Source: Escherichia coli O157:H7 (GTDB lineage: Bacteria; Pseudomonadota; Gammaproteobacteria; Enterobacterales; Enterobacteriaceae). From it: a stretch of DNA of 64,000 nucleotides. Position 1 is the first letter of the stretch. The number at the start of each line of letters is the position of its first letter. Below are positions 6,001 to 9,000 of the stretch, in pieces. The position numbers are program-made. Location: the NCBI RefSeq assembly GCF_013167455.1, contig NZ_CP038328.1. One strand, 5' to 3'.

Positions 6001-9000
6001 GACGTTCAGCTTCAAAAGCCGCAATTTTCGCATTCTGCTCAGCGGTACGGGTTTTAACCTGCTGCTCCTGCTCAAGCGTCATAAACGCTTCTTGTTGTTC
6101 AATCTCCAACTTGCGCGAAAGTGCATCACGGTTTTTCTCACGCACCGCAACTTCTACATCCTGTTCAACTTCGTTACGCTCGCGGCGACGGCGCTCCGTC
6201 TCCTGAGTCAGTTTGGTTAAACCTTCGGCGTCAAAGGCATTGTTAGGATTGAAATGTTCTTTCGAGGTCTGGTTAAAGTTGGTAAGTGAAACGCTTTCCA
6301 GTTCCAGGCCGTTTTTCGACAGATCTTCAGCTACGGTATTTTGTACTCCCTGCACGAAGTTCTCGCGGGTATCCTGTAACTCATGCATGGTCATTTGCGC
6401 AGCTGTTGCACGGAGGGCATCGACAAATTTATCTTCAACCAACATACGTAAGTCTTCAGGCGACAGGGTGCGTTGCCCCAGCGTCTGGGCAGCGGTGGCA
6501 ATCCCTTCTACTGAAGGTTTTACCCGCACAAAGAAAGCGACTACTACATCGACGCGCATACGATCTTTCGTAATCAGGCTATCAATGGTTGAGCGGCTGA
6601 CTTCCAGCTTCAGAGTATTCATATTGATGGGGATTATTTCATGAAAGATCGGCATCACGATTGCGCCACCGCTCATTACCACTTTTTGCCCCCCTAAGCC
6701 GGTACGGACAAATGCTTGCTCTGCCGAAGCGCGACGATAGAGCCTGGCGAAAATAATTCCAATAATAAACAGAATGCATACGGCAATAATCGCGGTAAAC
6801 ATCCAGGAGGGCACGGAATTAACAATATCATCCATTATTAAATTTCCTTTTGATTAATAAATTACAATATTTGGGGCTAGGGATTGTTTTCCGCCAAATA
6901 TCGCGTTGCAGAAAGTCGGCAAATAATTAACACTTTGTCTCCTTTAGTGAAAATTTTTCCTTCTTCAGGCTCCAGTAGTAAATAATGTATTTGGCCAAAA
7001 TGATCGGTGAGTTTTCCTTCGCAGGGATTACCTGAAGTGGCTTGATGACCGGTAATTAACGCCATGCTACCAATATATTCTTCTTCTGTAATAGCTGAGC
7101 TATGATCGCGTGGAATCCAGGGCGCAACTATTTTACCGGTATAATGCACCGCAATAATCGTAAATAGTAAACTGACAGGAACCACAAACAGGTTCGAGAG
7201 TGGTGATTGCCAGACCATGATGCAGGTATGCTGCAACAGGATGCCAATAAGACCAAAAAAACCAGCCAGTAAGCAAAGAACGACGAGAGCTGGCAATCTT
7301 CCGATATTGAGATAATGAAGTGCCTGGCTAATATGACCTGTGGTTATGGAATCATAATGGTCAAGATGTGCATCAAGAGCACCGGAGAGCATGTGACCGC
7401 AGATAAGCGCAAAAATTTCTAAAAGGCCGATCAACAGTACAAAGGAAATAGCGAAAAGATAAGGGGTGTTATAGTCGGCGAATAAAATCATATGTCACTC
7501 CAATGTCCATTTAGTGACGCAATATTTACTTTGTGATAGTTTCCTTGCTTACATTTGTCTTTGTTAATAATAACATATGTTAGAGAGGTTCTGGAAGAGA
7601 AAGTCTTTTAATATGGTTTTTTATTTTTCACTAAAAAGTGTGATCGGGGACAATATATTTACGCACGTTATGTTTAAAGGCACTACACTGATTGGGGAAT
7701 ACTGAAATCAGAAAAAGCATATGGCCTTAAAAGGTATGCGATAACCGGAGGATGTGCTTATGGATCATAGTCTTAATTCTTTAAATAATTTCGATTTCCT
7801 AGCGCGTAGTTTTGCCAGAATGCACGCAGAAGGTCGCCCGGTCGATATTCTGGCCGTTACTGGTAACATGGATGAAGAACATAGAACCTGGTTTTGCGCA
7901 CGTTATGCCTGGTATTGCCAACAGATGATGCAAACCAGAGAACTTGAATTAGAACACTGATATTACGGGCCGTCTGGCCCGTTTTTGTGTTGCTTTATTC
8001 TGCTTTATCAATAGGCGGGATAGCCGGAGGAGATTGAAGATCTGCTACCGAATTATTGCGCGCTTCCAGTTCACTGCTGCGCTGCTCCAGTAACGCCAGT
8101 TTTTCACGAGTCCGCAACAGGACTTGCGTCTGAACGTCGAATTCTTCGCGGCTTACCAGATCGAGACGCGTCAGCTGCGCTTGTAGGGTTTGGCGGATTT
8201 TTTTCTCCACATCTTCCCCGAACTCCCTGATTCCTTTAGGCATTGATTCGTGAACCTGGCGAGCGATTTGCTCAATTTTTTTCGGGTCAATCATTGTAGT
8301 TTCCCTGTACTGATAGGTGTTGAGTGCCATTGTAGTGCGATAAGGGTAAGTCATAAACCAGAATTATGTGAAGCTATGCGTTGCTGCCGCTAATCATTAG
8401 CGTTATAGTGAATCCGCTTATTCTCAGGGCGGGGCGAAATTCCCCACCGGCGGTAAATCAACTCAGTTGAAAGCCCGCGAGCGCTTTGGGTGCGAACTCA
8501 AAGGACAGCAGATCCGGTGTAATTCCGGGGCCGACGGTTAGAGTCCGGATGGGAGAGAGTAACGATTCTGTCGGGCATGGACCCGCTCACGTTATTTTGG
8601 CTATATGCCGCCACTCCTAAGACTGCCCTGATTCTGGTAACCATAATTTTAGTGAGGTTTTTTTACCATGAATCAGACGCTACTTTCCTCTTTTGGTACG
8701 CCTTTCGAACGTGTTGAAAATGCACTGGCTGCGCTGCGTGAAGGACGCGGTGTAATGGTGCTTGATGATGAAGACCGTGAAAACGAAGGTGATATGATCT
8801 TCCCGGCAGAAACCATGACTGTTGAGCAGATGGCGCTGACCATTCGCCACGGTAGTGGTATTGTTTGCCTGTGCATTACTGAAGATCGCCGTAAACAACT
8901 CGATCTGCCAATGATGGTAGAAAATAACACCAGCGCCTATGGCACCGGTTTTACCGTGACCATTGAAGCGGCTGAAGGTGTGACTACCGGTGTTTCTGCC

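What the first reader, a model, noticed from the sequence alone, without database searches (positions are those of the whole stretch)
8410..8640. FMN riboswitch in the ribB leader
The RFN aptamer motifs are clearly present and are followed by a ~90-nt expression platform before the ribB RBS. This is expected biology, noted for completeness and because the leader can also yield a stable sRNA.
Basis: partly seen in the sequence, partly recalled or inferred. Interest (0 to 1): 0.15.

Follow-up and report, generated by a model that had tools for sequence, protein, structure and literature searches.

The report
E. coli ribB FMN riboswitch (SroG)
This is the well-studied FMN-sensing riboswitch in front of the E. 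coli riboflavin gene ribB, identical to the laboratory K-12 sequence, so it is real but ordinary biology.

Summary
The observation and its interpretation both hold. Rfam RF00050 (FMN/RFN) matches window 8416-8564 (+) over the full model at 120.9 bits, against a gathering score of 66.2 (E = 1e-27). The next gene, 103 nt downstream on the same strand, is ribB (8668-9321; Pfam DHBP_synthase, 280.7 bits).

The whole ubiK-ribB intergenic region and leader (8295-8700) is 406/406 identical to E. coli K-12 MG1655. It is at least 99% identical in 5425 of 5426 complete E. coli genomes. RefSeq annotates 'FMN riboswitch' on exactly the same span. Published experiments on this exact sequence therefore apply.

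FMN stabilises P1. This frees a stem that sequesters the Shine-Dalgarno sequence and the AUG, and exposes a rut region for Rho-dependent termination. [quoted passage not shown] My folds recover all of these helices, and the leader has no intrinsic terminator.

The stated 89-nt platform is correct. The box ends too early, however: the sequestering stem runs to 8676. The 'stable sRNA' remark refers to SroG, which is documented. A trans-acting role for it rests only on in-vitro binding.

One small addition: the J6/1 sequence GGGAG (8551-8555) is complementary to an invariant CUCCU (8614-8618), and the two covary in other lineages.

Verdict: already known, low interest.

The parts
8381..8409 (+). 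Putative sigma-70 promoter: -35 TTGCTG (8381-8386), 17-nt spacer, -10 TATAGT (8404-8409)
   Evidence: Read directly from the sequence. The consensus scan missed it because the -35 hexamer matches only 3 of 6 positions. The position fits a start at G8416. This is inference, not a demonstrated promoter.
8416..8416 (+). Nucleotide 1 of the published ribB leader numbering (inferred transcription start)
   Evidence: With 8416 as nt 1, the published anti*-P1 stem (141-149 with 175-183, two G-C pairs, G149:C175) maps exactly onto AGAGUAACG/CGUUAUUUU. The AUG then falls at nt 253 of the 282-nt construct.
8416..8564 (+). FMN (RFN) aptamer, helices P1-P6
   Evidence: RF00050 at 120.9 bits against GA 66.2, full-length match. 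RefSeq has a 'FMN riboswitch' feature on the same span.
8418..8425 (+). P1 5' strand UUAUUCUC, which pairs with 8555-8562
   Evidence: Rfam alignment. The helix is recovered in the aptamer MFE fold. It is 99% paired in 36 related leaders, with only one-sided U-A to U-G changes.
8555..8562 (+). P1 3' strand GAGAGUAA
8556..8564 (+). 5' strand of the anti*-P1 stem (AGAGUAACG), which pairs with 8590-8598 in the FMN-free state
   Evidence: Present in the unconstrained MFE fold of 8416-8700. Described and mutated in PMC11571811. It is 91.7% paired across 36 leaders, with one-sided changes only.
8590..8598 (+). 3' strand of the anti*-P1 stem (CGUUAUUUU). It contains published pause sites 175 and 181 (8590 and 8596).
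8572..8585 (+). Small hairpin CGGG/CCCG enclosed by the anti*-P1 stem
   Evidence: Compensatory changes occur (G-C to A-U in 4 leaders at one pair; A-U and C-G variants at another), and the hairpin is 96.5% paired.
8599..8609 (+). Variable hairpin (GGC/GCC in E. coli). It is replaced by other self-complementary sequences, or absent, in relatives.
8551..8555 (+). J6/1 GGGAG, part of the conserved aptamer core. It is predicted to pair with CUCCU 8614-8618 in the FMN-free state.
   Evidence: MFE fold. Invariant in 36 of 36 Enterobacterales-type leaders. Cross-lineage covariation seen.
8614..8618 (+). CUCCU, inside the invariant block CUCCUAAG. It is the predicted partner of J6/1.
8576..8635 (+). 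The only C-rich, G-poor stretch of the leader (33% C, 18% G); candidate rut region
   Evidence: Composition scan. It overlaps region 184-193, which becomes more accessible with FMN (PMC11571811). The literature states that the rut site opens with ligand (PMC10085680). The exact rut boundaries were not determined here.
8424..8430 (+). UCAGGGC (end of the P1 5' strand plus J1/2); 5' strand of the anti-P1 (anti-sequestor) helix
   Evidence: This pairing appears when the RBS and AUG are forced open. The partner motif is invariant in 23 leaders spanning Enterobacterales, Vibrionaceae, Pasteurellaceae and Desulfobacterales.
8625..8631 (+). GCCCUGA, the 3' strand of anti-P1. It overlaps the 5' strand of the sequestering stem.
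8628..8640 (+). 5' strand of the sequestering stem (CUGAUUC UGGUAA)
   Evidence: Region 218-227 is protected by FMN in RNase H probing. The stem is 100% paired in 36 leaders.
8654..8657 (+). Shine-Dalgarno GAGG
   Evidence: Sequence. It is paired (8654-8659 with 8645-8650) inside the sequestering hairpin in the OFF-state fold.
8663..8676 (+). 3' strand of the sequestering stem (UUACCA U GAAUCAG). It covers the AUG (8668-8670) and codons 2-3. Published pause 247-249 corresponds to 8662-8664.
8668..9321 (+). ribB, encoding 3,4-dihydroxy-2-butanone-4-phosphate synthase, the regulated gene
   Evidence: ORF. PF00926 at 280.7 bits. RefSeq ribB. 100% identical to K-12 RibB.
9352..9383 (+). Intrinsic-terminator-like hairpin with a U-run after ribB
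   Evidence: Consensus scan: 13 pairs followed by a T-run.

Best explanation
Window 8416-8676 is the E. coli ribB leader, gene name sroG. It is an FMN riboswitch that switches off ribB at two levels.

FMN-bound (OFF) state. When FMN binds the nascent aptamer (8416-8564), P1 (8418-8425 with 8555-8562) is locked. The downstream segment GCCCUGAUUCUGGUAA (8625-8640) is then free to pair with UUACCAUGAAUCAG (8663-8676). This buries the Shine-Dalgarno sequence and the AUG. [quoted passage not shown]

FMN-free (ON) state. The 3' strand of P1 pairs with 8590-8598 (anti*-P1). The 5' strand with J1/2, UCAGGGC (8424-8430), pairs with GCCCUGA (8625-8631) (anti-P1). The sequestering stem cannot form, ribosomes initiate, and Rho is kept off.

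The decision is made co-transcriptionally, between the pauses at 8590/8596 and 8662-8664.

Shown here: the aptamer match, identity to K-12, the presence and mutual exclusivity of the helices, the lack of an intrinsic terminator, and conservation of the switching sequences. Taken from published experiments on the identical sequence: FMN binding, RBS protection, Rho dependence and the pause sites. Inferred: the exact promoter and the exact rut boundaries.
For: - RF00050 matches the full model at 120.9 bits against GA 66.2.
- The leader is 406/406 identical to K-12 MG1655. It is at least 99% identical in 5425 of 5426 complete E. coli genomes, with 'riboswitch | ribB' annotated under the match.
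- ribB is confirmed by PF00926 at 280.7 bits.
- The unconstrained MFE fold of 8416-8700 contains anti*-P1 and the sequestering stem.
- Enforcing the aptamer gives P1 plus the sequestering stem. Forcing the RBS open gives UCAGGGC:GCCCUGA.
- There is no intrinsic-terminator-like site between 8416 and 8667.
- The only C>G segment is 8576-8635.
- GCCCUGAUUCUGG and AUGAAUCAG are invariant across 23 leaders from several orders. Leader positions 199-226 and 248-261 are invariant in 36 Enterobacterales-type leaders, while the hairpins between them vary with compensatory changes.
- Changes in P1/anti*-P1 and in anti-P1/sequester are limited to A-to-G transitions opposite U. These preserve both alternative pairings.
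- Literature on this sequence. Kswitch is about 176 nM at P1 and about 206 nM at the sequestering stem. Pauses lie at 175/181 and 247-249, and anti*-P1 mutants have been tested (PMC11571811). The Rho termination score is 3.1 by ChIP in a rho R66S mutant (PMC5499598). The rut site opens with ligand (PMC10085680). Deleting the riboswitch raises ribB mRNA and riboflavin (PMC9885008).
Against: - Within Enterobacterales the main switching helices never vary. Covariation there neither supports nor contradicts them.
- The thermodynamic stability of the aptamer alone is not exceptional (z = -0.81).
- The 2024 study itself says that the structure of nt 150-210 in either state is not settled.
- I could not read the primary Rho paper (Hollands 2012) or map the rut and termination sites myself.
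- The C-rich tract is modest (33% C).
Confidence: 0.95

Rival explanations
1. The switch is purely translational. FMN only hides the RBS, and the fall in mRNA is a secondary result of untranslated RNA being terminated by Rho or degraded. There is no FMN-gated rut site.
For: The sequestering stem covers the SD and AUG and is the best conserved part of the platform. For thiM, Bastet et al. showed exactly this indirect route (PMC5499598). The C-rich tract is weak.
Against: The same paper and PMC10085680 class ribB with mgtA as direct control, with a rut site exposed by ligand in a purified system that lacks ribosomes. Region 184-193 becomes more accessible with FMN.
Confidence: 0.1
2. It is a Bacillus-type transcription attenuator, in which FMN binding allows an intrinsic terminator hairpin to form in the leader.
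For: This is the commonest FMN riboswitch design in Firmicutes. GCCCUG anti-terminator-like motifs follow many of the aptamers fetched. A U-run (8658-8664) follows the SD.
Against: The scan finds no G+C-rich stem with a U-tract anywhere in 8416-8667. The hairpin before the U-run is AAUUUU:GAGGUU, which is weak and is part of the RBS sequester. The literature states that E. coli riboswitches do not use intrinsic terminators.
Confidence: 0.02
3. In addition to its cis role, the leader is an sRNA gene (SroG). The prematurely terminated or processed 5' fragment acts in trans on other mRNAs.
For: The locus carries the gene name sroG, and a TSS was mapped for it (PMC2760140). SroG bound eight of nine tested mRNAs in vitro (one of them weakly): cdsA, cysJ, yfbR, yncD, mepM, potA, pgl, fecE (PMC6172242).
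Against: The evidence is in-vitro EMSA only. No in-vivo target regulation, Hfq dependence or phenotype has been reported in what I could read. The G-rich structured aptamer can give non-specific duplexes. Conservation of the leader is fully explained by the cis switch. PMC6242692 treats sroG simply as the riboswitch.
Confidence: 0.1
4. It is a chance resemblance to the RFN motif with no function.
For: None beyond the unremarkable folding z-score.
Against: E = 1e-27 with a full-length match. The element sits on the correct strand in front of ribB. It is near-universal in E. coli. The platform is conserved across orders.
Confidence: 0

Closest known systems
E. coli K-12 ribB FMN riboswitch / sroG (Rfam RF00050)
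   Same: The sequence is identical: 406/406 over the intergenic region and leader. The aptamer span matches the RefSeq annotation. The helices are the same ones published (P1, anti-P1, anti*-P1, sequestering stem) when 8416 is taken as nt 1.
   Different: Nothing differs in the element itself. The surrounding genome is not K-12: the ygiL-yqiG fimbrial genes and IS2 that lie beyond ubiK in K-12 are absent, and glgS follows ubiK directly, as in O157:H7.
Bacillus subtilis ribD (ribDEAHT) FMN riboswitch
   Same: It belongs to the same aptamer family and binds the same ligand. The logic is also shared: an element complementary to the conserved 5' CAGGGC of the aptamer competes with the off-state structure.
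   Different: The B. subtilis element gates an intrinsic terminator and is purely transcriptional. Here there is no intrinsic terminator, and the output is RBS sequestration plus Rho-dependent termination.
Salmonella mgtA Mg2+ leader and E. coli thiM/thiC/lysC riboswitches (Rho-linked riboswitches)
   Same: These are also 5' leaders in which ligand state controls Rho-dependent termination, with regulatory pauses near the start codon.
   Different: They have different aptamers and ligands. For thiM, Rho acts indirectly through loss of translation. ribB is described as exposing a rut site directly.
Riboswitch-derived sRNAs such as Listeria SreA/SreB (from my own knowledge, not checked here)
   Same: A terminated riboswitch leader accumulates as a discrete small RNA.
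   Different: For SroG there is only in-vitro binding evidence for trans targets. An in-vivo trans function has not been shown.

Membership tests
FMN riboswitch (RFN element, Rfam RF00050) | Covariance-model score at or above the curated gathering score over the full model | tested here: met
   120.9 bits against 66.2; model positions 1-138 of 138; E = 1.1e-27.
FMN riboswitch (RFN element, Rfam RF00050) | Six-helix architecture (P1-P6) with conserved junction nucleotides | tested here: met
   27 of the 28 consensus pairs are canonical in this sequence. The junction motifs AGGGC, ACCGGCGGUAA, GCCCGCGAGC, CCGACGGU and GUCCGGAUGGGAGAG are all present.
FMN riboswitch (RFN element, Rfam RF00050) | Located in the 5' leader, on the same strand, of a riboflavin biosynthesis or transport gene | tested here: met
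   The aptamer ends 103 nt before the ribB AUG. ribB matches PF00926 at 280.7 bits and is annotated as ribB in RefSeq.
FMN riboswitch (RFN element, Rfam RF00050) | Binds FMN with a ligand-dependent structural change | not testable with these tools
   Published for the identical sequence: Kswitch about 176 nM at P1 and about 206 nM at the sequestering stem (PMC11571811). Identity to K-12 is 406/406.
FMN riboswitch (RFN element, Rfam RF00050) | Expression platform with structures mutually exclusive with P1 | tested here: met
   P1 competes with anti*-P1 (8556-8564 with 8590-8598) and with anti-P1 (8424-8430 with 8625-8631). Anti-P1 in turn competes with the sequestering stem.
Rho-dependent riboswitch leader (ribB/mgtA type) | No intrinsic terminator in the leader | tested here: met
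   No terminator-like site on the + strand in 8416-8667.
Rho-dependent riboswitch leader (ribB/mgtA type) | C-rich, G-poor rut-like segment whose accessibility depends on the switch state | tested here: inconclusive
   One C>G stretch at 8576-8635 (33% C, 18% G). It overlaps strands of the ON-state helices. The composition bias is modest and the boundaries were not mapped.
Rho-dependent riboswitch leader (ribB/mgtA type) | Termination depends on Rho (bicyclomycin or a rho mutant relieves it) | not testable with these tools
   Published: Rho termination score 3.1 in rho R66S (PMC5499598), and single-molecule Rho termination modulated by ribocil-C (PMC10085680).
Intrinsic-terminator FMN riboswitch (B. 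subtilis ribD type) | G+C-rich terminator hairpin followed by a U-tract in the platform | tested here: not met
SroG small RNA | Discrete stable transcript covering the ribB leader | not testable with these tools
   Literature only: a TSS was mapped for sroG, which forms an operon with ribB (PMC2760140). The original description (Vogel et al. 2003) is not held in the library.
SroG small RNA | Trans-acting regulation of other mRNAs in vivo | not testable with these tools
   Only in-vitro EMSA binding has been reported (PMC6172242).

The most novel reading that the evidence does not exclude
Two readings remain open.

(1) SroG as a trans-acting sRNA. The FMN-induced, Rho-terminated leader fragment would not be mere debris. 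It would be a trans-acting sRNA whose abundance reports flavin sufficiency and which regulates other mRNAs. The candidates with in-vitro binding are cdsA, cysJ, yfbR, yncD, mepM, potA, pgl and fecE.

(2) An extended ON-state helix (smaller point). The FMN-free fold may contain a helix not drawn in the 2024 model. J6/1 GGGAG (8551-8555) would pair with the invariant CUCCU (8614-8618), stacked on anti*-P1. That would give about 14 bp that tie up FMN-pocket nucleotides and part of the C-rich tract.

The probability given is for reading (1). I put reading (2) at about 0.5 for being a real helix and about 0.2 for being both real and previously undescribed.
Probability: 0.1. Interest if true: 0.45.

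Novelty: already known. Interest (0 to 1): 0.08.

Why it matters
ribB is essential, and this riboswitch is a validated antibacterial target for roseoflavin and ribocil. It is also a model for riboswitch control of Rho-dependent termination and for co-transcriptional ligand sensing. Finding it here tells us nothing new about the organism. It is useful as a positive control showing that the first-stage reader can recognise an RFN element from raw sequence. The only forward-looking points are that the ON-state structure of nt 150-210 is still called unresolved in the 2024 literature, and that a trans role for SroG is untested in vivo.

Tried and rejected
- **Thermodynamic significance of the aptamer.** The z-score is -0.81 against 200 shuffles, which is uninformative. 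I relied on the covariance model instead.
- **Consensus promoter scan.** It found no promoter upstream of 8416. The likely promoter, TTGCTG-17-TATAGT, was read by eye and has a poor -35, so it is marked as inference.
- **Sub-threshold AdoCbl-II hit** at 8494-8562 (22.3 bits against GA 36.5). I rejected it as chance similarity within P5-P6 of the FMN aptamer.
- **Covariation test of the switching helices in 36 Enterobacterales-type leaders**. P1, anti-P1, J6/1:CUCCU and the sequestering stem are essentially invariant, so the test has no power. Only the two small platform hairpins show compensatory changes.
- **Broader 23-sequence alignment**. It does not keep the variable-spacer elements in register, so I used a motif contingency table instead. 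That table is confounded by phylogeny, because Enterobacterales is one clade.
- **Short ORFs overlapping the leader** (8486-8620 +, 8577-8717 +, 8498-8644 -). I rejected them as genes. For example, the ATG at 8577 lies in a hairpin loop that varies among relatives.
- **Primary papers not available.** Hollands 2012, Vitreschak 2002 and Vogel 2003 are not in the held library. The rut and termination coordinates, the original anti-sequestor drawings and the SroG ends could not be checked. For the same reason I cannot say whether the J6/1:CUCCU pairing was drawn before.
- **K-12 annotation.** The MG1655 record in the collection lists no sroG or riboswitch feature at this locus. The PGAP-annotated O157:H7 record does.
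Full report

The Rfam scan of the whole window reports RF00050 (FMN riboswitch aptamer, RFN element) at 8416-8564 on the + strand. 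The score is 120.9 bits against a gathering score of 66.2, with E = 1.1e-27, and all 138 model positions are matched. A local search with permissive filters gives the same hit. It adds only a sub-threshold AdoCbl-II match (22.3 bits against 36.5) inside P5-P6, which I discount.

When the Rfam consensus structure is projected onto the sequence, 27 of 28 pairs are canonical. The next ORF on the same strand is 8668-9321. It is a DHBP synthase (PF00926, 280.7 bits). The Shine-Dalgarno GAGG is at 8654-8657.

The folding energy of the aptamer alone is not unusual (z = -0.81). The case for 'more than chance' rests on the covariance model and on conservation.

**2. What is it?**

The window is E. coli. 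The 421 bases around the element are 100% identical to many complete genomes and at least 99% identical in 5425 of 5426, always with 'riboswitch | ribB' annotated under the match. In an identical O157:H7 record, RefSeq places an 'FMN riboswitch' feature on exactly the span that corresponds to 8416-8564. It sits between the divergent ubiK gene and ribB.

The entire ubiK-ribB intergenic region and leader (8295-8700) is 406/406 identical to K-12 MG1655. Every experiment published on the K-12 ribB leader therefore applies to this sequence without qualification.

**3. Anatomy**

The published numbering can be anchored precisely. If 8416 is nt 1, the published anti*-P1 stem (141-149 with 175-183, 'only two G-C pairs', G149:C175) is AGAGUAACG (8556-8564) paired with CGUUAUUUU (8590-8598). 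The AUG is then nt 253 of the 282-nt construct. The remaining elements follow from this:

| Element | Window coordinates |
|---|---|
| P1 | 8418-8425 with 8555-8562 |
| Pauses 175 and 181 | 8590 and 8596 |
| Pause 247-249 | 8662-8664 |

The folds behave as follows:
- The unconstrained MFE fold of 8416-8700 already contains anti*-P1 and a sequestering stem, CUGAUUC-UGGUAA (8628-8640) with UUACCA-(U)-GAAUCAG (8663-8676). This stem encloses the SD and the AUG.
- Enforcing the aptamer keeps that stem.
- Forcing the RBS and AUG open instead yields UCAGGGC (8424-8430) paired with GCCCUGA (8625-8631). This is the anti-P1, or anti-sequestor, helix.

Three further points:
- There is no intrinsic-terminator-like site in the leader. 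One follows ribB at 9352-9383.
- The only C-rich, G-poor part of the leader is 8576-8635 (33% C, 18% G).
- A plausible promoter, TTGCTG-17 nt-TATAGT, ends 7 nt before 8416. The scan missed it because of its weak -35, so this is inference.

**4. How it works**

The steps below come from the literature on the identical sequence:
- FMN binding protects the P1 3' strand (Kswitch about 176 nM) and the 5' strand of the sequestering stem (about 206 nM).
- FMN binding makes nt 184-193 more accessible.
- Sensing is efficient when polymerase is at nt 175 (about 23 nM) and poor at nt 247 (about 7.7 uM). This defines a co-transcriptional window.
- Anti*-P1 mutants behave as expected (PMC11571811).
- Rho dependence is supported by ChIP in a rho R66S strain, with a termination score of 3.1 (PMC5499598). 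It is also supported by single-molecule work in which ligand opens the rut site (PMC10085680).
- Deleting the riboswitch raises ribB mRNA and riboflavin output (PMC9885008).

My folds, the absence of an intrinsic terminator and the position of the C-rich tract all fit this model. With FMN, P1 locks, the sequestering stem forms and the rut region is exposed. Without FMN, anti*-P1 and anti-P1 hold both ends of the aptamer, the RBS is open and the C-rich tract is base-paired.

**5. Comparative evidence gathered here**

One DNA-pattern scan of species-representative genomes and one of metagenomes gave leaders in front of ribB homologues from Enterobacterales, Vibrionaceae, Shewanella, Pasteurellaceae, Desulfobacterales and GC-rich soil bacteria.

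GCCCUGAUUCUGG and AUGAAUCAG are invariant across 23 diverse leaders. The first three ribB codons (Met-Asn-Gln) are thus part of the RNA switch.

In 36 Enterobacterales-type leaders, positions 199-226 and 248-261 never change, while the hairpins between them vary, sometimes with compensatory changes. The few substitutions in the switching strands are A-to-G changes opposite U. These preserve both alternative pairings, as expected for sequences under dual pairing constraint. Because these helices are invariant, covariation statistics have no power for them. I state this as a limitation.

**6. A small addition**

The MFE fold stacks a further helix under anti*-P1: J6/1 GGGAG (8551-8555) paired with CUCCU (8614-8618). 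CUCCUAAG is invariant in Enterobacterales.

In other lineages the two sides change together:
- GAAAG with CUUUC in Photobacterium, two Shewanella species and a metagenome relative.
- GGAAG with CUUCC in a Desulfobacteraceae MAG and two metagenome leaders.
- GGAAG with CUUUC (a G-U variant) in three others.

In 120 unique leaders, CUCC occurs within 20 nt upstream of GCCCUG in 25 of 28 leaders of the GGAG class and in 1 of 92 others. CUUU and CUUC occur almost only in the AAAG and GAAG classes.

The caveats are substantial:
- Enterobacterales is a single clade.
- Penetrance outside it is low.
- The GC-rich soil clade instead places a mimic of the P1 5' strand (CGUUC) at that position.
- The purine-rich J6/1 will match many pyrimidine tracts.

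The 2024 paper leaves this region undrawn and calls the structures unresolved. I could not read the older structural proposals, so I do not claim novelty for this helix.

**7. The sRNA remark**

The locus is also the gene sroG:
- PMC2760140 mapped a TSS for it and notes that it forms an operon with ribB.
- PMC6172242 found in-vitro binding of SroG to eight mRNAs (one of them weakly).

A stable leader fragment is therefore documented. A trans function in vivo is not.

**8. Verdict**

The finding is correct and is already known in detail. The box should be extended to about 8676 to include the sequestering stem, the SD and the AUG. Interest is low.

Noticed in passing
window 8551-8555 and 8614-8618: J6/1 GGGAG is complementary to an invariant CUCCU in the platform, and the MFE fold stacks this pairing on anti*-P1. 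The two sides covary in other lineages (GAAAG/CUUUC, GGAAG/CUUCC). The 2024 model of the ON state leaves this region undrawn.
   Followed up: partly
window 8625-8637 and 8668-8676; loci L004, L007, L033, L057, L081, L096, L104, L119 and many metagenome loci: GCCCUGAUUCUGG and AUGAAUCAG (codons Met-Asn-Gln of RibB) are conserved from Enterobacterales to Vibrionaceae, Shewanella, Pasteurellaceae, Desulfobacterales and GC-rich soil bacteria. The first codons of ribB are therefore constrained as part of the RNA switch.
   Followed up: partly
window 4425-4574 and 4801-4950 (+): Two full-length SIB_RNA matches (140.2 and 147.7 bits). By their position next to yqiK, these are probably the SibD and SibE antitoxin RNAs (names from my own knowledge).
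   Followed up: no
window 7754-8294 compared with K-12 (L002): In this window glgS lies directly beyond ubiK, as in O157:H7. In K-12 MG1655, ygiL, a disrupted yqiG and an IS2 copy follow ubiK. The window is therefore not from K-12, and it lacks (or K-12 has gained) that fimbrial cluster at this junction.
   Followed up: partly
window 63889-64000 (-): An isrC Hfq-binding RNA match (127.7 bits), cut off by the end of the window.
   Followed up: no
window 42288-42351 (-), 48132-48202 (+), 59175-59251 (-): Rfam hits to the ES173 sRNA (99 bits against a gathering score of 90) and to two naRNA4 (CssrE, nucleoid-associated RNA) elements (68.1 and 84.8 bits).
   Followed up: no
window 9583-9753 (+): A small ORF downstream of ribB corresponds to the RefSeq-annotated small protein YqiD. 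It lies between the ribB terminator-like hairpin (9352-9383) and the convergent zupT gene.
   Followed up: no
E. coli genome collection: One of 5426 complete E. coli genomes has no match to the ribB leader. At least one genome has two copies, and one match lies on a plasmid.
   Followed up: no
locus L200:126-410 (metagenome): This leader is identical to E. coli except that its first ~9 nt, including the P1 5' strand, are replaced (CAGTATCTT instead of GCTTATTCT). It may be an assembly chimera or a rearrangement that would disable P1.
   Followed up: no
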